Assembly (NCBI GenBank): GCA_964019425.1
Contig: OZ025789.1
Location: forward strand, 620,001-684,000
Source: Flectonema sp. DT1601
Taxonomy: Eukaryota
Reading direction: 5' to 3'
DNA: 64,000 nucleotides
Shown here: positions 44,621 through 59,395 of the stretch, one piece after another
Layout: each line of letters starts with the position of its first letter
How positions within the stretch are numbered: position 1 is the stretch's first letter
Translations under genes and position numbers: made by a program
Notes under the pieces: generated by a model
The model's database searches: none
What the model was told of the DNA's origin: nothing
The model's input: only the letters and a program-made list of their open reading frames with translations

Positions 44621-45035
44621 AGTAAATTAAGATTCGTTTCTACCCGTCGTAGTTCACTAAGCGAATGGTTTTGAAGTCATCTCACTATTCGCTTCAATAC
44701 TGCGCATGTTTTATGTTTTTTACTCTGTTTTATGTCAATTATTGTGGGTGTTGCTTTCCAGCCACCCTTCCTCTCACTTTTTTTTTTGAGAAAAAAAAAA
44801 AATAACAAAACCAACTCAGTTTAACTGCATCGTATATTATCTAATTATGTAGTTATATAAATGTGATTTCAGAAAAACTGTTTTAATCACGTCTCTCAAC
44901 AAATAACAAACACTCTTTTCTACAATTATTATTATTATTATTATTTTGGTTATTCTATTAATGTTCTTTTTGTGAATTGGAGAAAGTGTTTTTAAAAATA
45001 TTTTTCCAAACACGAAATCAGATTGGGATTTTTTG

Positions 45036-48000
45036 ATGTTAATTCGACTCGTTGAAGTAATCGCTCTGGTCGTAGTAGTTGAGGGAGGTTGGCCGCAGTG
45101 CATCACAAAACCTGAAACATGCTATGAAAAGATTCATGGAGATTTCGCATACGCGATTCGAAGTGCTAGTAGTGGGAAGAATCCACATTCTGTTATGAAA
45201 TCTTTTATTTCAATGGGTGAGGATTCGTTTGGAGAATTGTGTAATCGAGAAAATTGGAATAAAAGAGAAAGCTGTACACACTGTCCTTTAAGAGTTGTTA
45301 TTTCTGATCCACCTGATCTCCAAATGGAAGTTTGTGCCAAAGACAATATCTTTGATCCCTTCGTACCAGATGCACACATCGACATGTACCACAAACTCAA
45401 CGGACAAAAACTTGAACTTCTCTTATCCGGCAATACAGATGAACAAAACCTCGCATGTAGCCCGACTGATTTATATGACGGTAAGAATTACACTGGTAAG
45501 ATGGTCGTGAGTATCCGCGGTACCTGTTTCTTCTTTGAAAAAGGTAAAAACGCAGCCCAAGCTGGAGCATCAGCATCAATCATAATGAACCCAAACCATG
45601 CCTTGTCAAGAGACTGGAGGATACCAGTTATGGCTGGCAGATCAAATGGACTTGGAGACATGCCTTCAGTGGCTGTTCATTACTACAGATTTGATCGCAT
45701 AGTAAAGGCTTTGAAAGATGGTATTAAAGTAACTGGGAGTATTCAATTATCCTGTAGTCAACCAGAAAGCTATCACGAATATGTTGACTTGGATTGTCCA
45801 CTTCCGTATTTTGTCAGCATGTGCAACATGCCAAGATTTTCTAGTCAAAATCGATTGTGTTCGAAGTGTACCTTCACAGTGGAAATGGGTGGTAAAGACG
45901 TTTGTATTTGGGGAAATGATCTCTTTCCGAGAAAGAAGAGAAATCACATACTCCGCAGAAGTGACTATCCAAGCCTCCCTTTTGAAACAGATATGGCTGT
46001 TTATATTCCTCATGATGGATGTGATTTATCGATGTTTAATTCTAATTTAAAAGATAAATTCGTATTTATTGACATTGAAGAAAAGTGTTTTTTAAACGCC
46101 ATCCATGCAATCCAAGAAGTAGGAGTAGCAGGGGTGTTCTTGTGTAGGAAAGACAACAGACCGTTTGAGTTTCCCAGTGAGAATTTAAAAATTCCATTTC
46201 ACAGAGTAAATGCATCTAATTACAGTACAGTAATTGACTTTTCATTGAAGAATGGAAAACTATTCAAATTATCGCCTGACTATGAAGCACATGAGCTACC
46301 AAGCCTCGTCGTCAAAGAGTGGACGGTTGACTTGCCATTTGTTCACCTGCTTCCTGCAGAACAACCACCTTCGCATATTAGGCTTAAGTCTTCTGATTTT
46401 ATTTGGTCATTTGCTGTTATTTTTTGTATCGTTTTGTTTTTATTGTTGTCAGTGGCATTTATTGTTCGACATGTTAGACAACCGAAAAGTACTTTGGGAA
46501 AAAGCGCATCTCGGAATACAATTCCTCTTTCAAGTGCTAGCGCAATGCTGTCGGTTACTTTATTGTTGACGATGGCTGCTAGTGCTTTTGCTCTTTCTTA
46601 TAACTCTGGTCTTGAGATTGCAACAACAACAAAAACTGAAACCAACGTTGTAGTTCGATTGTCTCATGCAAACGCTGCTGAGAATATCCGTCATTTGAAT
46701 GAGCTGTGGAGAAGTGTCCTTCTCGAAGATACCGTTCTCACCACGGCTTCCTTCTTCGAAACCGGCTCTCGTCTTGCCAGGTCTCTAGCAAGCGCATACG
46801 TCAGCTATAATGGAACATGGGATTCGTTTCATGAGTTGTTCTTCATTCAACACTCACTTAAATTCAATTGGCTTCATCAAATTAAGATGAAAAACGGTTT
46901 CTTTGCTTCGAAGAATGTCGTTTCAGACTTCGTCAAATCTCCAGAAGCAAATAAAACTGAAAACGGATATGACTGTGGATTGTTATCTACGACAGTACAC
47001 GACAATGGTATTCTGACGTATAAAACTAAAATTAGTAAGACTCAGTACAACCCAATGAGAGTAGTAGCTGGTGAATACAGAAACCCTTTTGATACTATTG
47101 CCGGTGTTGATATGGGAGGATTGGTTTATGTTCAAAATTCATACAACATTCTGTTTATGGCTGAAGCTGATATCAGTCGGAAAGCACCACTAACGATTGC
47201 AACACCAATCTATACAGCTTTATCTCAAACAGAACCAGTTGGTGTTATTGAGGTTCACCGAGGATCACGTCATCTCTCAGATGCAATTATTTCATCAATA
47301 AAAAGCTCTCCTGAAGCAGAAAACATCACATTCTTTATTGCTCATCGAACCACAGGAGCTATCATAGCCAATAGCTACAGCACAATCAAACACATCGATA
47401 TGTTTCCATTCAGTGCTAATTACAGACCTGCGACGGAACTCTACACGTTATTTAACATAGCTGAAATCCAGCAGAGGGCTTTGGGAATGAAACTTTATAA
47501 TGCAGGTAGTGGATCTTTCGGTGTTGGATTTAAACAGCTTTCTGGTGGTAGTCACAAAATGGGAGGGTTGTTTGATCAAAAAGATTATTACAAGGAAACT
47601 GTTAGTAATGTTATACTTAAATTCGATTTTGAGATGACAGATGAATTTGGTAGGATTATCGACAGAGGACCAGAACATTGGAAAGCAGAAAACAGAGATG
47701 GATCTTGCTCTGGAAGTAGTTGCCTTCATGAGGTGACTGTTAATTCTCACGGACCGAAAGGTAATAGGGCGATGCATTTTGACGGAAAATCAATTTTATA
47801 TATTTACCAAAATCTAACAACTGACACCCCTCGCATTGCATCATCACGAATTCAAGCCAATCCTTGGCAATCAACATCAACTGCATGGAACAAGTCGATG
47901 ACGTATTCAGATGGTACCGAAGTACTCATCTTTAGTGAGGATACGAGTAAGACACCACTTCCGATTGTAAGAGAAGCGTGGTACTTGCACGTCTTTTCTA

Positions 48001-49820
48001 TCTCTCTCTGGATGAAGCCGAGTGGCTTTATAAATGACTCACACACACCAGATGAGACGTCGCCAATTCTTTATTCAGATGCGGAATTCTCAGAGAATCG
48101 AATCTATGCTAATGGAATGTGGTGGTTGGGAGTTCAGTACTTCGGGTGTGCCACTGATCCTATACCTGGGGGACCTCCTCCAGATGAGTGGACTCACATA
48201 TTTGCAACACTCCGATCAGAAGGTCTCAACTCATTCTGTGAAGTTTACATAAATGGCCACCTTCACTCAGAAAAGAGACTAGCACCTATGTATGGAGCAG
48301 CTCCAAATGCAGAACCAAATCGACTTGGAGTTCACTACGAGGGGTTGATTGATGATTTTATAATTTTCAACGACACATTCAACCCTGAAGAGATATCCCA
48401 ATTTTATAAAACAGGAATAATGAAGAGGAGTATTCGATCAAGGGAATGGACGTATGACGTCTGTGAGTTTAATTTTGGACCACATCAATTTCTAATTGGA
48501 CTAATGATCCCAGCAGAAGACATACTTCGAAGATTAAATAAAGACAGCGCTGCTCTTGTTAACGACCTTATGATTCTGGATAGGAATACTTACGCTAGAC
48601 TAGATCAACTCATCGTTGAAGCAGTTCTTATAGTTATGGTCAGCGTCTTGGCTTCTGTTTTAATATTCTTATTATGCAACGATTTCTTAACAAAACCATT
48701 CTCATCATTCGCGAATCGATTAACAGCAGTAGCTGCAATGCGGCTAGACAATCACCAACCTCAGAAAACTTTTATCAGAGAAATTCATAAGCTTGAAGAG
48801 GCAATGGAAACTATGATGACAAACATTCAAGAGTATAAAAATTATGTTCCGAAAGACCTATTTATTGCGGTTGAAGTTGATTATTCTAGTGATAAAATTA
48901 GTAGCTCTGAAGAGTCTTCGTTAGGAACTTCAACCGGAAGTGTTACTCCGGGACAACCTCTGAACTTATCATCGTCAAGATCCGAACCACTTTCTAATAT
49001 GAAACAGGTTCAGGAATTGAGATCTGCCTTGGAATTGTCACTTGTTAAGAAAAAAGTTTCATTCTTAGTTGTTAATATTTCACACTTTCAACACTTAGTC
49101 GAATCTCTGACTGACGCGTCACTTATTGAGACTCACGGTACTTATATCAGTACTACCTTAGTAACGATAGTTCTTAATAAGGGTACCCCTGATAGTTTTA
49201 GTGGTGATAGAATATTGGCAACTTTCAACGCTGTGAGACCAGTTCCGACCCACCGACAGGCAGCGTGTAAAAGTCTCGTTGTACTTAAAAATAAATTACA
49301 AGAATGTAATGCGACTTGTACGTTGACGTTTACTGCTGCTATTGCGTCGGGTGATTCTAAAGTAGGTAATATAGGAAGTGATACCATGAAGAAGTTTACT
49401 TGTATATCAAATGTTGTGAGTTGGGTTTATGCTTTGGAACGTGTCGCTAAGAAGCTTCGAGTCCCAAATTTAATTGACACTGGAGTCTATGAAGATGTTA
49501 AGACTTTCTTTACTACACGACACACAGCAATGGTATTCTACAACAAAAGAAGTGAAAAACAAGTAAGGGTTTCTACTCTAATTCGATGCAATGAAGTCGC
49601 GTTGGAAGAATGGATGTATACTCTCGCTCGCAATGAAGAAAGGGATCCATACGTCGCTTGGAACATTGCATTGGAAGCAGTTTTTTCTGGAGATTGGGAA
49701 ACAGCAACATCATTTTTTCGTCGACCAGCCGTTGGCATTGCTGACGAGAGTACTGTTCGCTACTTTCAGAGATGCTGCAGTGTGAAGGACTACTTTCCAA
49801 TTAATGTCCTATTTAATTAG
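45036..49820 (+). CDS. Multi-pass receptor-type protein: PA domains, LamG/ConA-like domain, HAMP-like linker, degenerate class III nucleotide cyclase
   Basis: Signal peptide; RGTCFFFEKGKNAAQAGA (PA); FSISLWMKP...WTHIFAT...VYING...GLIDDFIIFN (LamG); FSGDRILATFNA and GNIG cyclase motifs. Confidence 0.8.
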   Translation: MLIRLVEVIALVVVVEGGWPQCITKPETCYEKIHGDFAYAIRSASSGKNPHSVMKSFISMGEDSFGELCNRENWNKRESCTHCPLRVVISDPPDLQMEVCAKDNIFDPFVPDAHIDMYHKLNGQKLELLLSGNTDEQNLACSPTDLYDGKNYTGKMVVSIRGTCFFFEKGKNAAQAGASASIIMNPNHALSRDWRIPVMAGRSNGLGDMPSVAVHYYRFDRIVKALKDGIKVTGSIQLSCSQPESYHEYVDLDCPLPYFVSMCNMPRFSSQNRLCSKCTFTVEMGGKDVCIWGNDLFPRKKRNHILRRSDYPSLPFETDMAVYIPHDGCDLSMFNSNLKDKFVFIDIEEKCFLNAIHAIQEVGVAGVFLCRKDNRPFEFPSENLKIPFHRVNASNYSTVIDFSLKNGKLFKLSPDYEAHELPSLVVKEWTVDLPFVHLLPAEQPPSHIRLKSSDFIWSFAVIFCIVLFLLLSVAFIVRHVRQPKSTLGKSASRNTIPLSSASAMLSVTLLLTMAASAFALSYNSGLEIATTTKTETNVVVRLSHANAAENIRHLNELWRSVLLEDTVLTTASFFETGSRLARSLASAYVSYNGTWDSFHELFFIQHSLKFNWLHQIKMKNGFFASKNVVSDFVKSPEANKTENGYDCGLLSTTVHDNGILTYKTKISKTQYNPMRVVAGEYRNPFDTIAGVDMGGLVYVQNSYNILFMAEADISRKAPLTIATPIYTALSQTEPVGVIEVHRGSRHLSDAIISSIKSSPEAENITFFIAHRTTGAIIANSYSTIKHIDMFPFSANYRPATELYTLFNIAEIQQRALGMKLYNAGSGSFGVGFKQLSGGSHKMGGLFDQKDYYKETVSNVILKFDFEMTDEFGRIIDRGPEHWKAENRDGSCSGSSCLHEVTVNSHGPKGNRAMHFDGKSILYIYQNLTTDTPRIASSRIQANPWQSTSTAWNKSMTYSDGTEVLIFSEDTSKTPLPIVREAWYLHVFSISLWMKPSGFINDSHTPDETSPILYSDAEFSENRIYANGMWWLGVQYFGCATDPIPGGPPPDEWTHIFATLRSEGLNSFCEVYINGHLHSEKRLAPMYGAAPNAEPNRLGVHYEGLIDDFIIFNDTFNPEEISQFYKTGIMKRSIRSREWTYDVCEFNFGPHQFLIGLMIPAEDILRRLNKDSAALVNDLMILDRNTYARLDQLIVEAVLIVMVSVLASVLIFLLCNDFLTKPFSSFANRLTAVAAMRLDNHQPQKTFIREIHKLEEAMETMMTNIQEYKNYVPKDLFIAVEVDYSSDKISSSEESSLGTSTGSVTPGQPLNLSSSRSEPLSNMKQVQELRSALELSLVKKKVSFLVVNISHFQHLVESLTDASLIETHGTYISTTLVTIVLNKGTPDSFSGDRILATFNAVRPVPTHRQAACKSLVVLKNKLQECNATCTLTFTAAIASGDSKVGNIGSDTMKKFTCISNVVSWVYALERVAKKLRVPNLIDTGVYEDVKTFFTTRHTAMVFYNKRSEKQVRVSTLIRCNEVALEEWMYTLARNEERDPYVAWNIALEAVFSGDWETATSFFRRPAVGIADESTVRYFQRCCSVKDYFPINVLFN

Positions 49821-50647: not shown

Positions 50648-50937
50648 TGGAAATCTGATGACTTCCTTTCTTTTTCATCTGAGATATCATTCGTGAGATG
50701 AGATAATAATAATCATTTACTCTTCACAGCAAGCATACATACACATACTCGCGACTGCAAAAAAGCAAAACCCGTTTGTGTGTTTCGTAAAGGGTTTTCC
50801 GAGTGTTTCTTTAACCCCCATTATACTTCACTCCTCAGGAATTACCGAACAAGATTAAAGGCTCAATTATACTTTTTTTCATGAAAAACTGTACTGGAAA
50901 TCTGATGACTTCCTTTCTTTTGCATCTGAGATATCAT
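50648..50937 (+). repeat. Local 43-bp direct repeat (50648-50690 and 50895-50937)
   Basis: TGGAAATCTGATGACTTCCTTTCTTTT(T/G)CATCTGAGATATCAT, one mismatch. Confidence 0.9.
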
Positions 50938-51132
50938 ACGTCTCTTCGATAAGAATTTATTTATTAGCTGATTCGTTATATTATTTTAAAGAACGAAGCT
51001 ATAATAAAACAATCCTAATAAGATTGGGTCTAAATACGTTGCTGTTGCCTTGTAGCTCTAGGGAGTTAACCCGATGCTCCCTAGTTTGCTGTATCTATCA
51101 GCGATGCACAGTACGCAATGTATTGGACTTCC

Positions 51133-51879
<747 letters not shown>

Positions 51880-52584
51880 ACTTCGGTAACTACCATGTGG
51901 GACTCGCTTAGGGTCTACCAGTGGAGGTTGCCAAGCTGCTTCTAGGAAGCAGCATATGACGGGGTATTTCGGTTCTTCGTAACCACTTTCCCTGCAAGGT
52001 GCATTCTACCTAAAGACTCCACCAAGCTAACATATGGCGAGGAGGAGCATGACTGACCATTTCAGTCATTTTCTGCATTAACATAATATTATGTTCCAAC
52101 GAATTATTTTGATATTTATTTTTCTTTTATTTCCCCATTTTTATTTTCCTAGAAACGCAATTTTGATTATTACTTTTATTTACATCTTTTACCACGGTAA
52201 GGTAATGTGAAACGGGCCCTGCTCATCTCTCTATTTTACTCCTTTAAAACTATTTTCCTTTTCTTTCTAAATTAATCTCTCCTCTCTACTTAGTCAACGA
52301 GCAAGATTTAACCTGGACCCCTTCTAGCTCTCCACCTAGCAACGAACAACGTTTAGCCTACGTTTTTTACCGTTCGAAATTAGGTATGCTTTTAGGGCAC
52401 GAAAGGCTATGAGCTTAGCGGATAAGTGGTTTCTGATCGTGTTAAGATAACCCCCCTCTCTCTGAGGGTAGAAGTCGATACCCGCCTACAAAAAACTTCT
52501 GTAAGCACGAGGTTTCTTCGAATACTTTTAGTTCTCTTCCTTTAAAGAGAAAAAGCCGCCGCTTTAGGCAAAAAAATATTTCAC

Positions 52585-55500
52585 ATGCGACACCCGAACT
52601 ATTTTAGGACGGGACCCAATGCAAAGGGGTATAACTTTGCGAAAAAACCCGGAGGGGTCGAAAACTCAAAGTTTTGGGGATTCCCAAAACAACAACAAAA
52701 AAGCAATAACCAAAGATTTCAATCAAAAAACGTTTCTAGACCCCATTTTTCCCGCCCCCATTCCCATTCACCAGTCAATGCAAACAAAGCGCTACGGACA
52801 GCGCTTTTTAAAGTCCTGCCTTTAAGGGACTTCCTTCTCAGGAAAATCACGCACACCGGCAAGACTCTACGTGTTTTAGTAGAACAGCGAAGCGGTAAAC
52901 AGCTACCGTTTAATGCAATTAATACAGCAATTCGCAGCGTGGGTGCGGGGAACCTTCGTATCATCATCGAGGGAACAGCAAATCAGCGCGCACAACAGCA
53001 AAGTTACAACCAGAACCCATGGAAAAAGAGCCAGATGAAAAAAGTAGATCATCTGTTTGCCAAACCATCACAGCACCGGCACAGAAGAAGTTACGGGCAA
53101 CAACGAGGCGGCCGTCTTAGACACTCGCCGCTGTCCAACTTCCACCATCGAAGCGAAAACGTGCAACACCGAAACAAGCGAAACTTCGATGGTATTGACT
53201 GGAAGTTATATGAGAAGAGCTGCAATAGGCAAAGGATGTCTTTCGTAAGAAGAAACCTCTCTCATCGTAAAATCCGCGGAAAACAACCAGGACTTCGAAC
53301 TTGCGGTGTAATCTATGCACTGTTTAGACGCTCCGACGGCAAAGTAATATACGTCGGCCAGACAGCTAACTCAGCACTGGAGCGAGCGCAGTCCCACTGG
53401 TACCAAGCAAAGAAGTGGTCACGTGACAGAAGGCAGAACGAAAATCGTCTGATGCAATACCTGTCACAGGAAAGGCTACCTCCACTAACAATCCCACTCG
53501 AGAAAATCCCAAGCAATCATTACCACAATGCTTCGGACTTCTACAGAGCTGCTGCCCCTCGAGAGCAGCATTATATTAATAGTTTTGGAAAACTTCTAAA
53601 TGTGAGAGGTTATTACTCACCAAAGCTAAGCTCTCAACGATCGAGAAAACACCAAAACCGCCCGCCACGCCCTGTTCGCCAACAACAGATGCCATCTTTC
53701 AAGTCACAGAATGTATACGAGCAGAACAGGTTTTATTTCAGTGAAGTTAACGATGATGGCGAGGACTTTGAATTATTCCAACAATCAAAACCAACCGCAA
53801 CAATTACATTAGAAAATGGTGTGTCATTTGAAGTTGAGACTTCCTACAAATGGTTGCCATCGAAGCTCAACTTTTTATTTGCTATGCCTGAAGACGAATT
53901 TTCGAACTACGACTTTACTCGTTGGCAAACAAATACAACTACAAAGGTACTTCAATTCCTTCGTTCTAATTTCCACCAAGAACGTTACACAGCCCGTGTA
54001 AAGTACCTCGAGAGCTGCTTTATGGAAAGATTGAATCCAGCAACACTACGCCGTCTCAAAAACAAAAAGGAAGCAAACAGCTACTGGCTTAAACTGAACG
54101 TCAGCCACAAGGCCTTAGATAGATTGAATCTAGGAGCAATTCTACACAGTGACGAAGTTAAGGCAGTCTGTCCAAATTTAAAAACCTTAAGCAGAACTAG
54201 AATCTGTCACAAACTGGGTACAACTGTAGGAGATATTGTATTAAACGCCACTTCTGTTGGGAATGGATGCGATGAACCCCTCTGTTCACCATGTCCCTGT
54301 TGTACTCTCGTTCCAGGAAGTATTAAATTCGATGGCCACGCCTGCGGTCTAGCAGTAAATCTTCCCGTATCTGCCGAATTACGAGATTTCTTTGCACGAG
54401 GACAGAAATTCAGAGTTCCAAAGCACCCCGCTGCAGCAATGGACTCGCTCGAAAGCGACATAGCAGTTTACGTAGATAAAGCTTACAGAAACACCACTGA
54501 CGATATTAAACTTCGCTTCAAAAACGTAATTCTTAAGCATCTCCACACCAAACTGAGCCGAGACCTTTCATTCCTTGACTCCCCGCTGTCAAGCAAAGCT
54601 CTCAAAGAACTTTCTTCACTACAAAATTCGATGGTTCTCTTAAAAGTAGACAAAGGACAACATGATATTGGTTTCATCTGTAAATCCTTCTACCTGAGTC
54701 TCCTCAGCAAACAATTAGGAGGTCCAGCCTATCAACAATTGAAAGCAACAGAGGAAATCACTCTAGCCTTCTTAGCTGAGAATAATAAAATCTTAGGAAA
54801 CAAGCATGCAGATAGACTACCACATCTCTACGGCATGATTAAATTGCACAAGTCAGCTATTGGGATGAGATGGATTTCGGGAGCCTCTTCACTCACAGGA
54901 ACGGAGAAGCAGCGTCAATTAGACAAGGAGCACAAAACGGCACCCGCAACAGCCACAACACACGCCCATCTGCATCTATCAAGTATTCTTAAAAATGTGA
55001 TGGCTCTACTAAAAGAAAAAGATATGAATTCAAAATACAAACGTTATTGGATAGTCGAATCTGATAAAGACATAGCTGCTGATATTAAATTAAACACAAC
55101 TCGACTAAAAGGCCTATCTCCCAAGACGCACGACTTCACTACGATGTATACACGACTACCCCACCAGGAGATCAAAGATAAAGTGAATGAAGCAATTAAA
55201 GAAGCATTCGAATTCAAGAATATTATGCGACTTGAATCTAATGACCCTGCGACCTACCGTGCTTTATCACAGTTAGAATGTAGAGCGCTTCTAAGCTTTT
55301 GTGTGGATAATTCTCTAATTTCAATGAGAGGAAAACTATGGAGACAAGTAGTTGGCATTCCCATGGGCGGCAACGCAAGTAGCGATATAGCTAATCTCTA
55401 CTGTTACAGAATCGAATCTAAATTTATGGATGACCTTGTAGCAAAAGGAGAGTTAGATTTAGCACGCAAACACGACTACTCTTGCCGGTACATAGACGAT

Positions 55501-56688
55501 TTCCTTACATGGAACTGCAACCCACCACCAGCAGAATTATACTCCATGAACTACACCGAGACCTCTAATGGTATTGATGATGTTTCATACATTGGAATTA
55601 GAATCCGAATCGAAACCACCAGATCAAACAACAGGTGGATACGTCTAAGCGTTAACGACAAAGCGCGTGGTTGGCATATCATACCAACAAGATTCACCCA
55701 CCAGCACTCAGCTGCTCAAGAATCGATGGGTACTGGTATCTTCACCACCATGCTCCTACGAGCACTCAGAATCTGTAATAATCAGGCAGATCTTCTACAA
55801 GAGCTCGAGTTCGTAACATACAGACTACTCAACCGAGGATACAAGTTTAAGAACCTCGCAGTAGCTTGTCACAGCTTTATCAACTTATATATTGACGATG
55901 GCAATGTTGCAGCTGCAATTCGAAGACGACTAAATATTACTTCCGAAAAGTTTAATCATGGTATCCCTGTAAGCGACGAAAAAGACACCATTAATCATAA
56001 AAGTTCCACACTTCACACCTTAGACAAACGATTCCCAATACAATCACATCAATCTTCAGGGGAAGGTCTAATCGGAGGTGAGTGTGGATGGGCATCGCTG
56101 AATTTTGTTGCAGACCATCTTTATCTTGACCGAATTAATTTCAGCTATTTGCAAGAACTACAACAAACATTCTACGAAGAACATCAAAAAGTAGAACCTG
56201 GCAGCAACGAGCAAAAACCATCCCCGGATGGTTGGTTCTCTTTAACCGTTCTGGGGGTAGCAAGTAAACATAAACTCAACAGGGAAATCCACCAATATGT
56301 AGATCCCAGTTCTATGGACTACCCAACAATAGCCGCCGCATTCATTTTAAACAAAGCTGGTGCTAGAATGTCACACTACATGGTGGCCCTTGTCTCCTTT
56401 GATTCCATTATTGTTAGAGACATTCTCAAAGGAGCGACAGACCGACGATTATCATTCGACCATTTTGACAGACATTTTAAACGCCCAGAATATTGTTTTC
56501 ACATGATTTTAAGAAAAACTCTGCAGGATAATAATAATGATAACGACTGTACCATGGCACCCTCGAATGAAGGAATTCTACTCCTCACCAACACTAAGGA
56601 AAAGCGCAAGAAAGACGACTACAGCTCCGATGAAGGAGAACTCGCACTCGTAATAAAACGAACAGATGTAGAAGAGATAGAACGCTGA
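52585..56688 (+). CDS. Retroelement polyprotein: basic N-terminus, GIY-YIG endonuclease, CxC/H linker, PLE reverse transcriptase, Josephin-like protease
   Basis: GVIYALF...IYVGQT...R...H...REQHYI...LLN; CPC...GH...RGQKFR; DKG, KLHK, DFTTMYT, QVVGIPMGGNAS, RYIDDF, SYIGI. Confidence 0.92.
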   Translation: MRHPNYFRTGPNAKGYNFAKKPGGVENSKFWGFPKQQQKSNNQRFQSKNVSRPHFSRPHSHSPVNANKALRTALFKVLPLRDFLLRKITHTGKTLRVLVEQRSGKQLPFNAINTAIRSVGAGNLRIIIEGTANQRAQQQSYNQNPWKKSQMKKVDHLFAKPSQHRHRRSYGQQRGGRLRHSPLSNFHHRSENVQHRNKRNFDGIDWKLYEKSCNRQRMSFVRRNLSHRKIRGKQPGLRTCGVIYALFRRSDGKVIYVGQTANSALERAQSHWYQAKKWSRDRRQNENRLMQYLSQERLPPLTIPLEKIPSNHYHNASDFYRAAAPREQHYINSFGKLLNVRGYYSPKLSSQRSRKHQNRPPRPVRQQQMPSFKSQNVYEQNRFYFSEVNDDGEDFELFQQSKPTATITLENGVSFEVETSYKWLPSKLNFLFAMPEDEFSNYDFTRWQTNTTTKVLQFLRSNFHQERYTARVKYLESCFMERLNPATLRRLKNKKEANSYWLKLNVSHKALDRLNLGAILHSDEVKAVCPNLKTLSRTRICHKLGTTVGDIVLNATSVGNGCDEPLCSPCPCCTLVPGSIKFDGHACGLAVNLPVSAELRDFFARGQKFRVPKHPAAAMDSLESDIAVYVDKAYRNTTDDIKLRFKNVILKHLHTKLSRDLSFLDSPLSSKALKELSSLQNSMVLLKVDKGQHDIGFICKSFYLSLLSKQLGGPAYQQLKATEEITLAFLAENNKILGNKHADRLPHLYGMIKLHKSAIGMRWISGASSLTGTEKQRQLDKEHKTAPATATTHAHLHLSSILKNVMALLKEKDMNSKYKRYWIVESDKDIAADIKLNTTRLKGLSPKTHDFTTMYTRLPHQEIKDKVNEAIKEAFEFKNIMRLESNDPATYRALSQLECRALLSFCVDNSLISMRGKLWRQVVGIPMGGNASSDIANLYCYRIESKFMDDLVAKGELDLARKHDYSCRYIDDFLTWNCNPPPAELYSMNYTETSNGIDDVSYIGIRIRIETTRSNNRWIRLSVNDKARGWHIIPTRFTHQHSAAQESMGTGIFTTMLLRALRICNNQADLLQELEFVTYRLLNRGYKFKNLAVACHSFINLYIDDGNVAAAIRRRLNITSEKFNHGIPVSDEKDTINHKSSTLHTLDKRFPIQSHQSSGEGLIGGECGWASLNFVADHLYLDRINFSYLQELQQTFYEEHQKVEPGSNEQKPSPDGWFSLTVLGVASKHKLNREIHQYVDPSSMDYPTIAAAFILNKAGARMSHYMVALVSFDSIIVRDILKGATDRRLSFDHFDRHFKRPEYCFHMILRKTLQDNNNDNDCTMAPSNEGILLLTNTKEKRKKDDYSSDEGELALVIKRTDVEEIER

Positions 56689-56742: not shown

Positions 56743-56971
56743 ATCAGTTCTTTTAAAATAGACCAATTGATGGATCCGATTTATTATTTAACTGGAATGA
56801 AGTCCCTCAGAACTTACTGATGAAGGCCTAAGAGGGACAAGTAGTATAAGATTAAGGCCTGAAACTACGTATTCCACAGTGTATTATGGAACAGCAGAAC
56901 AATGTGTTTTTATAACTTTTCTTTTTTATATTTTATTTTAGTGCACTTTTTTATAACAAACTCATATTCTA
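56743..56971 (+). repeat. Right pseudo-LTR (229 bp), followed by about three TATC units
   Basis: Appears identical to 51651-51879; continues TCTATCTATCT to 56982. Confidence 0.95.
56802..56868 (+). ncRNA. Second copy of the family 1 hammerhead, cleavage predicted after A56846
   Basis: Same sequence as 51710-51776 at an offset of 5092 bp. Confidence 0.8.
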
Positions 56972-57002
56972 TCTATCTATCTAAAACAGATAGAAACCAG
57001 CA

Positions 57003-58304
57003 ATGCGACTGTCGTTAGTATTTCCAGAACACGGGTTTTTCCCAACGTAATTTTCAACGCAACTGCGGATTCTCGTGTAAGTGATGACGACACAAACAGC
57101 AGCAGAATGGAAATTTCATTTGAGGGGAAGCTGCTTCCATCAAGAACACTGTTGGAATCATATGGAGTGAAATCAGATTCACAACTGGTAGTTAGTGGGT
57201 TAAAATATTATTCAAAAGACTGGTTCACTGACCATTATAAAAAGAAAATAAATGATTGAACTGTCTTAACTCCACTGGAGAGCTTCGCTTAGACACTCCG
57301 ACATTCGTAGTTGATGTCTGCCTTGTATTTAACAATAATTGGAGTACAATTAATGTTATAAGGTTGTATTTCTGTAATTCTGTTTCTTCTGTAACCCGCG
57401 TCTCAGAGATGAAAAATGAAGTCCCTGAACATTTCTATTATCGATTTATCAGGACTTTCAGACATTACAGTTTTTTGGTGATGATTTTCTTAGATATTCC
57501 ATTCGGTCAATAATGTAGACTTTTCTGATCTTCGTAGTGTGACAGCCATTGGAGAATGTTTTCTTGAGAGAGTTGATTTATCTCCATTGAGCAGTTTAAC
57601 TTCTATAGGTCGACGCTGTCTTTATTAATGTTTGATGTCTGATATAAACTTATCAGGTCTGAGTAACATTACCAATGTTGGAGAATACTCTCTAGCAGAG
57701 TGCACGAAGGTCGAGACAAATTGATTTGTCATCATTCGGTTCTCTGAGCGCTGTTGGTTATTATTTTCTTTTTATGTGTACATTAATCACGACATTAGAC
57801 TTTTCGTGCTTTGAAAGTGTCACGTCAATTGGGAGGTCATCTCTCTCTGGATGTACGGGTCTAACAGCTCTTGAGTTGGGTAGTTTTAAGAACGTCACGT
57901 CAATTGATGATTTGTTTTTAAGTAATTATTTTGAATTAGAAAAAGTAGAATTACCGATCCTTTCACAGCATCGTTTTCGTTGGTAGGTTCTTCCTGAGTA
58001 ATTGCAAGTCGCTTAGGAAGTTTGATACTTCTTGTTTTCGAAAACATCTTGTTGATTAGTGATTTATTTATGAACGCTTGTTCTTGACTGAGGTAGACTT
58101 ATCAGGTTTTTGCAACACCTCCGCAATTGGAATCTTCTAAACTGTACATCAATCAACACAGTTGACCTGTCACATCTTAAGAAAGTTGTTTCAGTAGACG
58201 ACTTTCTTTTTGATAAGTGTCACTCACTGAAAACTGTATCAGGTCTTAGTAATCCAGTCATAGCGAAGGGTTTAAGAGAATACCTTGCGGTATTGCCTTC
58301 ATAA
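57003..58304 (+). pseudogene. Disrupted ubiquitin-like + leucine-rich-repeat (BspA-like) gene
   Basis: Fragments such as ISFEGKLLPSRTLLESYGVKSDSQL, FESVTSIGRSSLSGCTGL and VDLSHLKKVVSVDDFLFDKC lie in different frames with multiple stops. Confidence 0.8.
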
Positions 58305-58645
58305 ATATAGGTTTCATTATTCTAATTGGTTTTTCTTGAGCTGTTTTTTCGTAGACCGATCAGAACTCGTGGTTTTTTGAAACTTTGTGTTGAAATCCGG
58401 GATTTTTTGAAAATTTTTGTGCGGAATTAGGGGGATTTCCCAAATAATATACACATTCTTTGCGAAAATCGAAAAGGAAGACGGCAGAATGCGTCTGCTG
58501 AGAATTTGAGAATTTGAATCTAAAAAAAATTCGAGAGAAAAAAAACACTTTTTCTATGTTCTTGATGCATGTGGTCTTTTGGCGTTGTAGGAGAAAACCT
58601 TTTTATTATATTTTTAGATTCTCCTCCTCAGTCTCTTTTCAATTA

Positions 58646-59395
58646 ATGTCGATATCTATCTCTGTACGACTTCCTGATGGGGAGGTCTGCAGCATCGATG
58701 TTACGGAACACATGAGAGTAAATGATATTAAGAAAATAGTTTCTTATGAACGAAGATGGGAATACGACTACTTTGATCTCGTGTACGAGGGAGCAATCTT
58801 AGATACTAACATCCCAGCTATCTCATTAGGTTTAGTCGATCAAAGTGAAATAGAACTTGTACTCTCTAGAAAGGGTGCAGCTTTAACTCGATTGGGAAAT
58901 CGTCCAATTACATGCGATGAGATGATACGTGAAGTCTATTCTGATGGTGGTAACGTTGCTGATTTCATCGATGCTGGGATACCAGCAAACGAAAGGATAT
59001 CACCGGGAGAGGCAATTCTTTCTTTTTGTGTGTCGCAAGGTAAATTAAAAGCCGTTCAACAACTGTATTCCCACCCGTTAGTTAACATTAATCTTCTTGA
59101 TGCGATGGGAAACAGCCCTCTTCATGTTGCTTGCAACAGAGGATTTGACACCATAGTAAAGCTCCTCATCACTCACCCTCACATTAATATAAACATCCAA
59201 AACAATGATGGATGGACACCTCTCTACACAGCTGTAGCTAATAATAGAGATGATATCGTTCTACTACTCTCACTCACAGATGGAATTAATATAAACTTGT
59301 CTACAAAACAAGCTTGGACTCCACTTCGGTTAGCCTCAACTAAGAGGAGACAAGACATGGTTTCAATTTTATTAGCGAGAGGAGGTGATCAGTAG
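58646..59395 (+). CDS. Ubiquitin-like domain + ankyrin repeat protein
   Basis: MSISISVRLPDG...LVYEGAILD...IELV (Ubl); GNSPLHVAC, GWTPLYTAV, WTPLRLAS (ankyrin). Confidence 0.85.
   Translation: MSISISVRLPDGEVCSIDVTEHMRVNDIKKIVSYERRWEYDYFDLVYEGAILDTNIPAISLGLVDQSEIELVLSRKGAALTRLGNRPITCDEMIREVYSDGGNVADFIDAGIPANERISPGEAILSFCVSQGKLKAVQQLYSHPLVNINLLDAMGNSPLHVACNRGFDTIVKLLITHPHININIQNNDGWTPLYTAVANNRDDIVLLLSLTDGININLSTKQAWTPLRLASTKRRQDMVSILLARGGDQ

What the first reader, a model, noticed from the sequence alone, without database searches (positions are those of the whole stretch)
56030..56520. Josephin-like deubiquitinase domain fused to the C-terminus of a Penelope-like reverse transcriptase
Seen: after the RT thumb the ORF reads HQ...GECGWASLN...LQELQQTFYEEHQK...SPDGWFSLTVL...AFILN...SHYMVAL...IIVRDILKG. 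Established: the ataxin-3 Josephin domain reads Q...LCAQHCLNN...LSSIAHQLDEEER...DDSGFFSIQVI...SFICN...EHWFTVR...WFNLNSLLTG, with triad C14/H119/N134. The candidate triad here is C1167/H1264/D1279, with the same 15-residue His-to-Asx spacing. Inference: a retrotransposon-borne deubiquitinase or protease that could protect the RNP from degradation, act on ubiquitinated chromatin, or process the polyprotein. I cannot confirm whether this fusion has been described.
Basis: partly seen in the sequence, partly recalled or inferred. Interest (0 to 1): 0.85.

Follow-up and report, generated by a model that had tools for sequence, protein, structure and literature searches.

The report
Penelope retroelement with swappable deubiquitinase tail
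An intact jumping gene of a protist (likely a diplonemid) ends in a domain predicted to fold like the ubiquitin-removing Josephin enzymes, with its three catalytic-type residues kept in relatives; this fusion was already noted in an alga, but related elements carry an unrelated ubiquitin-removing enzyme family in the same slot, which suggests that these elements likely gain from stripping ubiquitin.

Summary
Observation confirmed; the fusion type is already in print. The ORF 52585-56688 belongs to a Chlamys-type Penelope-like element (N-terminal GIY-YIG, CxC, RT, identical 229-bp pseudo-LTRs, TATC microsatellite flanks). Pfam misses the C-terminal domain, but an alignment-based model (pLDDT 88) matches human Josephin-2 and ataxin-3-like best among 48,161 chains (Z 13.0 and 12.2; best non-Josephin 9.4). 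Cys, His and Asp are each kept in 14 of 17 aligned domains. The domain is 65% identical in a sister family (RT 69%, tail 36%). New here: a divergent subfamily in likely diplonemid hosts, fold-level support, and a swappable slot. Three RT relatives in the same clade carry a USP deubiquitinase instead, and seven Naiad-like RTs carry USP separately (one USP clade rejected, p 9e-47). My searches found no paper on USP in Penelope-like elements. Best reading: a cis-acting ubiquitin hydrolase that likely shields the transposition complex. Activity and substrate are untested.

The parts
51134..51653 (+). (TATC)130 perfect microsatellite at the upstream junction; likely insertion target
   Evidence: the only such array among the 32 rows for the window
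51651..51879 (+). upstream pseudo-LTR (exact copy of the element's 3' end)
   Evidence: 229 nt identical, spacing 5092
52585..56688 (+). single intact ORF, 1367 aa from Met: GIY-YIG endonuclease, CxC, RT, Josephin-like domain
   Evidence: identical to database protein P0075
53305..53604 (+). N-terminal GIY-YIG endonuclease with R, H, E, N residues and without CCHH
   Evidence: Pfam GIY-YIG E 0.0074, below cutoff; motifs read
54283..54303 (+). CxC motif of Naiad/Chlamys elements
   Evidence: aa 580-586; definition
54637..55950 (+). Penelope-type reverse transcriptase (DKG aa 702, motif A aa 863, GIPMG aa 937, YIDD aa 982) and thumb
56020..56520 (+). divergent Josephin-fold cysteine protease domain (aa 1159-1325 stop-to-stop)
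56083..56085 (+). predicted catalytic Cys, at the start of a helix in the model
56374..56379 (+). predicted catalytic His followed by an aromatic gatekeeper (Tyr)
56419..56421 (+). predicted catalytic Asp
56521..56685 (+). poorly conserved tail with a basic stretch
   Evidence: 36% identity to the sister family
56743..56971 (+). downstream pseudo-LTR / 3' end, followed by a short TATC run
56817..56864 (+). hammerhead-like core within the pseudo-LTR (second copy at 51725); not a canonical ribozyme, untested

Best explanation
This is an intact Chlamys-type Penelope-like retrotransposon whose single protein ends in a domain predicted to be an active Josephin-fold cysteine protease, which likely removes ubiquitin from the element's own endonuclease-RT protein or from proteins next to it during transposition. 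Shown by sequence and calls: element anatomy, in-frame fusion, conserved Cys/His/Asp, conservation at the level of the other domains, and replacement by USP domains in relatives. Predicted: the fold. Inferred: catalytic activity (about 0.85); ubiquitin or a close ubiquitin-like protein as substrate (about 0.7); action in cis as part of the ribonucleoprotein, most likely to escape ubiquitin-directed degradation (about 0.4) rather than to edit ubiquitin on chromatin or repair factors at the insertion site (about 0.2). Mechanism by analogy with Josephin-2: the ubiquitin tail would thread under the Tyr gatekeeper, Cys1167 would attack the bond after Gly76, and His1264/Asp1279 would activate it.
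For: Fold: model pLDDT 88.4, pTM 0.86 from a 20-row alignment. Against 48,161 chains the top four rows are Josephins: 6pgv Z 13.0, rmsd 2.9, 131 aligned; 3o65 Z 12.2, rmsd 3.2, 144 aligned; two bacterial Josephins 9.7 and 9.5; best non-Josephin 9.4; C39 peptidases 8.8 (one search agrees). A profile built without any Pfam-Josephin row hits 4 PDB sequences at E up to 10, all ataxin-3 or ataxin-3-like, E 0.1-0.67. Triad: C, H, D each in 14 of 17 rows; 13 rows have all three, 1 has C/H/E, and the 3 rows without Cys also lack His; the residue after His is aromatic in 17 of 17. Sister family P0071: domain 108 of 167 identical (65%) against RT 69%, GIY-YIG 66%, N-terminus 48%, tail 36%. Slot swapping: of 12 RT homologs, 3 have Pfam Josephin and 4 Pfam UCH/USP above cutoff after the RT, 5 neither; the 4 USP domains keep Cys and His boxes. 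In a 32-row RT tree this element lies in a 13-row clade (100/100) with 8 Josephin, 3 USP and 2 unassigned tails; 7 more USP rows form a clade (100/99) among Naiad-like RTs; one USP clade is rejected, p-AU 8.6e-47.
Against: No activity data. Identity to solved Josephins is only 12-18%, and Foldseek ranks two C39 peptidase chains first by E-value (TM 0.47-0.50, against 0.55-0.59 for the eukaryotic Josephin chains at ranks 3, 4, 6, 7 and 10). The folding alignment held 3 rows with Pfam Josephin hits, which may pull the model. The oxyanion Gln is not identifiable: the loop before the Cys is longer and Gln1156 is not conserved. Triad distances could not be measured, as the tool gives no coordinates. 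The domain is dispensable: 26 of 37 metagenome loci with a finished ORF end right after the thumb. Two sister elements (L005, L022) have tails without the triad that do not score significantly against the profile, and Diplonema papillatum homologs lack Cys and His. No evidence picks the substrate protein.
Confidence: 0.62

Rival explanations
1. The domain is a ubiquitin hydrolase, but its job is at the insertion site: it removes ubiquitin from histones, PCNA or repair factors to steer repair of the endonuclease cut.
For: It is tethered to the endonuclease and RT and followed by a basic tail. Bao et al. 2010 proposed such a repair-related role for OTU and Ulp1 domains of DNA transposases.
Against: No chromatin-reader domain was found in the ORF. 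No direct evidence. It shares all fold evidence with the best explanation and differs only in substrate.
Confidence: 0.2
2. Josephin-fold enzyme with a shifted specificity: ester-linked ubiquitin, clipping before the di-Gly, or another ubiquitin-like protein (NEDD8, UFM1, SUMO, ATG8).
For: Human MJD enzymes are selective ubiquitin esterases (abstract). Bacterial Josephins include clippases, and many keep the aromatic gatekeeper; they are the next structural matches (Z 9.2-9.8). The subfamily has its own invariant residues near the Cys.
Against: Eukaryotic Josephins fit clearly better (Z 12-13). Exchange with USP domains points to ordinary ubiquitin removal.
Confidence: 0.15
3. A self-processing or general protease (C39-like) that cuts the element's own polyprotein.
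For: Foldseek's two best E-values are C39 peptidase domains; Pfam C39 E 0.12 on the Cys region.
Against: C39 Z 8.5-9.8 against Josephin 12-13. Sequence profiles lead to Josephin. Most relatives have no protease, and USP replacements need a ubiquitin body as substrate (established knowledge, recalled).
Confidence: 0.08
4. A passenger capture or catalytically idle ubiquitin-binding module without a role for the enzyme activity.
For: Triad-less relatives exist (P0019/P0105, perhaps L005, L022).
Against: Triad columns are among the six most conserved in the alignment, and the domain is conserved like the endonuclease.
Confidence: 0.07

Closest known systems
Chlamys-1, -4, -6_cBra (Chara braunii; Craig et al. 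2021, PMC8557442)
   Same: N-terminal GIY-YIG without CCHH, CxC, RT, C-terminal extension with a Josephin-like motif, microsatellite targets.
   Different: Those ORFs are about 1,800 aa with a second Cys/His-rich domain and were called only weakly homologous, with no triad or fold test in the passages I read. This one is 1367 aa, lacks the second domain, sits in TATC and is likely from a diplonemid. Direct comparison was not possible because the supplement's sequences are cut at 400 letters.
Dualen/RandI non-LTR retrotransposons with a Josephin-related cysteine protease (Kojima and Fujiwara 2005)
   Same: Josephin domain inside a retrotransposon protein (cited; legend).
   Different: A different retrotransposon subclass with APE and RLE endonucleases. 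The original paper was not held.
Human Josephin-2 and ataxin-3-like (MJD family)
   Same: Best structural matches (Z 13.0, 12.2); Cys-His-Asp triad with His-Asp spacing 15 as in Josephin-2; aromatic residue after His.
   Different: 12-18% identity, no Pfam hit, longer loop before the Cys, no conserved Gln; fused to an RT.
OTU/Ulp1 domains of Ginger1, Mutator and Helitron; peptidase C19 on a Trichomonas DNA transposase (Bao et al. 2010, PMC2836005)
   Same: Transposon proteins with a C-terminal ubiquitin or SUMO protease, with two families alternating within Ginger1.
   Different: DNA transposons and other protease families. Josephin-USP alternation in Penelope-like elements was not found in my searches.

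Membership tests
Josephin (MJD) deubiquitinases | Papain-like Josephin fold with helical protrusion | tested here: met
   Model pLDDT 88; top VIA rows Josephin-2 Z 13.0 and ATXN3L Z 12.2. Predicted, not solved.
Josephin (MJD) deubiquitinases | Cys-His-Asn/Asp triad in register | tested here: met
   Aligned with Pfam-positive Josephins; each residue in 14 of 17 rows; Cys at a helix start, His and Asp on neighbouring strands.
Josephin (MJD) deubiquitinases | Triad side chains within catalytic distance | not testable with these tools
   The prediction tool returns no coordinates.
Josephin (MJD) deubiquitinases | Pfam PF02099 gathering score | tested here: not met
   No hit for the domain or for 13 closest proteins. 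Linked only through profiles. It is therefore filed as a divergent Josephin-like subfamily, not a PF02099 member.
Josephin (MJD) deubiquitinases | Aromatic gatekeeper after the catalytic His | tested here: met
   Tyr here; aromatic in 17 of 17 rows; feature described.
Josephin (MJD) deubiquitinases | Oxyanion-hole Gln upstream of the Cys (recalled feature) | tested here: inconclusive
Josephin (MJD) deubiquitinases | Hydrolysis of ubiquitin conjugates | not testable with these tools
   Needs an assay.
Chlamys (N-terminal EN+ Penelope-like elements) | GIY-YIG N-terminal to RT with R, H, E, N residues | tested here: met
   definition.
Chlamys (N-terminal EN+ Penelope-like elements) | No CCHH and no CX2-5CxxC zinc finger (separates Chlamys from Naiad) | tested here: met
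   Read from the sequence.
Chlamys (N-terminal EN+ Penelope-like elements) | CxC motif and DK(G) motif | tested here: met
   aa 580-586 and 702.
Chlamys (N-terminal EN+ Penelope-like elements) | Pseudo-LTRs and microsatellite target | tested here: met
Chlamys (N-terminal EN+ Penelope-like elements) | Insertion-in-fingers domain | tested here: inconclusive
   Motif A to B distance is 74 aa here against 86-98 in 7 relatives; no canonical element was at hand as control.
Chlamys (N-terminal EN+ Penelope-like elements) | RT phylogeny with named Chlamys references | not testable with these tools
   Reference sequences are cut in the supplement. My tree separates this clade from Naiad-like RTs.
Peptidase C39 | Best structural and sequence match | tested here: not met
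   Pfam E 0.12; Z 8.5-9.8 against 12-13 for Josephins.

The most novel reading that the evidence does not exclude
N-terminal-endonuclease Penelope-like elements have a deubiquitinase slot behind the RT that has been filled at least three times (Josephin, possibly twice, one from a diplonemid-specific subfamily that Pfam cannot see; USP in a protist clade; USP again in Naiads). This convergence marks ubiquitination of the retrotransposon protein as a host restriction that these elements counter with their own active enzyme.
Probability: 0.4. Interest if true: 0.75.

Novelty: new member of a known kind. Interest (0 to 1): 0.5.

Why it matters
Ubiquitin and SUMO proteases keep turning up in transposon proteins, but their role there has only been guessed in the papers I read. 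This element offers an intact, compact test case: one ORF, a soluble domain of about 170 aa with an assigned triad, a sister family as replicate, and natural relatives in which an unrelated deubiquitinase takes the same place. If activity is shown, it would support ubiquitin-directed control of retrotransposon proteins as a host defence and add a divergent Josephin subfamily. The fusion itself is not a first report.

Tried and rejected
Pfam scan of ORF and domain: no Josephin; the Longin hit (E 0.001, 29 residues of one helix, below cutoff) was rejected as spurious. Single-sequence search of PDB: one chance hit. Single-sequence fold: pLDDT 35, discarded. Homolog search with the domain as region of the full protein: 0 of 229 candidates. 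P0025 was dropped as a repeat protein and P0014 as a near-identical copy before alignment A1; P0043 was dropped from the 17-row count as a near copy. Domain scans of metagenome and viral contigs: 47 and 9 pattern matches, none confirmed. ESM Atlas: no usable hit for the domain; other tries did not complete. Sequencing runs: none was listed. No whole genome is held, so copy number and DNA-level selection were not measured. Complex prediction with a ubiquitin from a giant-virus contig: no verdict, score 0.25 under the mark 0.34, alignment not used, controls not folded. Rfam found no ribozyme in the pseudo-LTR, and the minimum-energy fold is not a hammerhead (z -1.69). Monophyly of Josephin-bearing RTs (with L005, L022) is not rejected, p-AU 0.077, so a second Josephin capture is not shown. 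Earlier scan findings: none.

Full report
Observation. The finding lies at the 3' end of one uninterrupted ORF, 52546-56688 (+), 1380 aa stop to stop and 1367 aa from the Met at 52585. Below, positions in calls use stop-to-stop numbering (add 13).

The element. The ORF has an N-terminal GIY-YIG endonuclease (Pfam E 0.0074) with the R, H, E, N residues and no CCHH, a CxC motif at aa 580-586, DKG at 702 and YIDD at 982. An exact 229-nt repeat flanks it (51651-51879 and 56743-56971). A perfect (TATC)130 array lies upstream and a short TATC run downstream. These are the features that Craig et al. 2021 give for Chlamys elements (PMC8557442, sections 6 and 9 read). The insertion-in-fingers is doubtful (motif A to B 74 aa against 86-98 in 7 relatives). 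Named close relatives come from Flectonema neradi, Lacrimia lanifica, Rhynchopus humris and Diplonema papillatum, so the host is likely a diplonemid (inference; that these are diplonemids is recalled). Clusters of 12 and 24 near-identical proteins and a sister family of 59 members indicate two multi-copy families.

Is the domain a Josephin? Direct searches fail: no Pfam Josephin hit, no PDB sequence hit. A search of 1.84 billion representatives gave 13 proteins at E up to 0.001; none has a Pfam Josephin hit. The profile of the query plus 11 of them hits 4 PDB sequences at E up to 10, and all 4 are ataxin-3 or ataxin-3-like (E 0.1-0.67). It also aligns to the Pfam-positive Josephin region of three other Penelope-like proteins with 94.4% probability, E 8.7e-8, with Cys, His and Asp in register. 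A profile of five such Josephins scores the domain 12.7 bits; 0 of 2000 shuffles reach it. AlphaFold2 with a 20-row alignment gives pLDDT 88.4 (the alignment included 3 Pfam-Josephin rows). VIA-align against 48,161 chains ranks Josephin-2 (Z 13.0, rmsd 2.9, 131 aligned) and ataxin-3-like (Z 12.2, rmsd 3.2, 144 aligned) first, two bacterial Josephins next (9.7, 9.5), and the best non-Josephin at 9.4 (one search agrees). Foldseek puts two C39 peptidase chains first by E-value but gives Josephin the best TM-score, 0.59. I conclude a Josephin-type papain fold in a divergent subfamily.

Is the active site kept? In 17 aligned domains Cys, His and Asp are each present in 14; 13 rows have all three, one has Glu for Asp, and the three rows without Cys also lack His. 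Two of those three (L005, L022) are not significant matches to the profile and may not be homologous. The residue after His is aromatic in 17 of 17, the gatekeeper described for conventional deubiquitinases and many clippases (passages of 10.1101/2024.07.24.604956). Josephin-2 uses Cys24, His125, Asp140 (PMC7337049, section 2.3): the same residues and the same His-Asp spacing. Against the full-length sister P0071 the domain is 65% identical, the RT palm 69%, thumb 79%, GIY-YIG 66%, N-terminus 48%, tail 36%, which fits purifying selection. Among 46 listed copies of the two families, all 24 that cover the Cys keep it, 28 of 29 keep the His and 29 of 29 the Asp; these copies are close to each other and add little.

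The slot is swappable. Of 12 RT homologs, 3 have Pfam Josephin and 4 Pfam UCH (USP family) above cutoff behind the RT; 5 have neither. The four USP domains keep their Cys and His boxes. Of 49 metagenome loci, 37 have a finished ORF: 26 stop after the thumb and 11 have a long tail. Of the 11, 2 match Josephin profiles, 6 USP (one broken by a frameshift), 3 are unassigned; one further locus has a Josephin in two frames. Pfam, run on 13 of the 49 loci, confirms UCH in 5 and gives Josephin E 2.3e-5, just below cutoff, in one. In an RT tree of 32 chosen rows (all 18 with a recognised deubiquitinase and usable RT, the 2 unassigned sisters, 12 without), this element sits in a 13-row clade (100/100) with 8 Josephin, 3 USP and 2 unassigned tails; 7 other USP rows form a clade (100/99) among Naiad-like RTs, one of which shows the Naiad zinc fingers by eye. 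One clade of all USP rows is rejected (p-AU 8.6e-47); one clade of Josephin rows is not (0.077). The groups were named after a smaller tree had been seen, and the tool warns of a long branch (L048). In a tree of the domains, the 10 members of this subfamily are split from the 5 other element-borne Josephins (100/100), and the RT-fused ones nest among proteins without RT similarity, one of them a complete Lacrimia transcript ORF. Capture from a host family is plausible but unrooted, and most of those proteins may be gene-call fragments.

How it likely works. Shown: fusion, conservation, exchange with USP. Predicted: fold. Inferred: the element's protein carries its own ubiquitin hydrolase in cis. 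Two unrelated deubiquitinase families in one slot argue that the selected activity is ubiquitin removal rather than self-cleavage. The simplest substrate is the element's own protein, which would escape degradation; chromatin or repair factors at the cut are the main alternative. Ester-linked ubiquitin (abstract of 10.1101/2020.05.11.087965) or clipping are open. Against necessity: most relatives have no such domain.

What is known. Craig et al. 2021 describe Chara braunii Chlamys elements with a C-terminal extension with weak homology to Josephin, three families in the supplement table, and cite Dualen elements for the same domain. I saw the abstract, sections 6 and 9, passages, and supplement parts 2 and 7, where proteins are cut at 400 letters, so the Chara domains could not be compared and may bear on whether this is the same capture. 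The words ubiquitin, UCH, USP, diplonem and Euglenozoa do not occur in the main text, nor UCH, USP, ubiquitin, peptidase or protease in the supplement text held. Bao et al. 2010 (PMC2836005, passages) list OTU and Ulp1 domains on Ginger, Mutator and Helitron proteins and a peptidase C19 on a Trichomonas transposase. Kojima and Fujiwara 2005 was not held; I know it only from citation and a legend in PMC9977147. Searches for USP or deubiquitinases in Penelope-like elements listed no paper that reports it; I saw listings only for most, read passages of PMC6431247, 10.64898/2026.07.22.740005, 10.1101/2025.06.12.659260 and the Craig preprint, and did not open PMC4792442. Subscription journals and Repbase reports are not covered.

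Verdict. The added value is the Josephin-USP exchange. Interest 0.5.

Noticed in passing
window 56817-56864 and 51725-51772 (+); L009:2930, L012:2792, L015:3427, L020:3642, L038:1696: Hammerhead-like core with a 6-bp stem II and long loop II in the pseudo-LTR, without a canonical stem I and without an Rfam hit. A segment upstream can pair with loop II: 7 bp here (242-276 of 1000 shuffles do as well), 11 bp in L015/L020 (15 of 1000), 14 bp in L038 (0 of 1000), 7-8 bp in L009/L012 (not above chance). Craig et al. noted such split cores in Naiads. A pseudoknotted variant ribozyme is possible.
   Followed up: partly
P0008, P0099, L013, L018, L019, L027, L035, L036: Naiad-like elements with a full USP (PF00443) domain fused behind the RT, forming their own clade; not found in the papers searched.
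   Followed up: partly
P0002, P0006, P0003: Closest RT relatives outside this element's own group carry USP after a long proline-rich spacer; P0002 is a 17-member family with ORFs over 2,000 aa.
   Followed up: partly
P0043: A truncated copy's thumb and whole Josephin-like domain, triad intact, is read in frame with about 380 aa of unrelated sequence: 3' fragments can hand the domain to other ORFs.
   Followed up: no
P0019, P0105: Annotated Diplonema papillatum proteins with this domain lacking Cys and His, one followed by Cys/His-rich repeats: possible pseudo-enzyme.
   Followed up: no
window 51134-51653: 130 perfect TATC units at the upstream junction against about 4 downstream; the asymmetry might reflect repeat addition by the RT or an older array.
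   Followed up: no
window 56957-58250: Broken pieces of a ubiquitin-like domain (Pfam E 0.011) and BspA-type leucine-rich repeats (E 5.8e-6) directly after the element; next gene 58502-59395 encodes a ubiquitin-like domain plus ankyrin repeats.
   Followed up: partly
window 50648-50694 and 50895-50941: 47-nt direct repeat, 96% identical, upstream of the microsatellite.
   Followed up: no
window 44976-49820: Intronless 1,594-aa membrane protein with PA and LamG domains and, by eye, a cyclase-like C-terminus.
   Followed up: no
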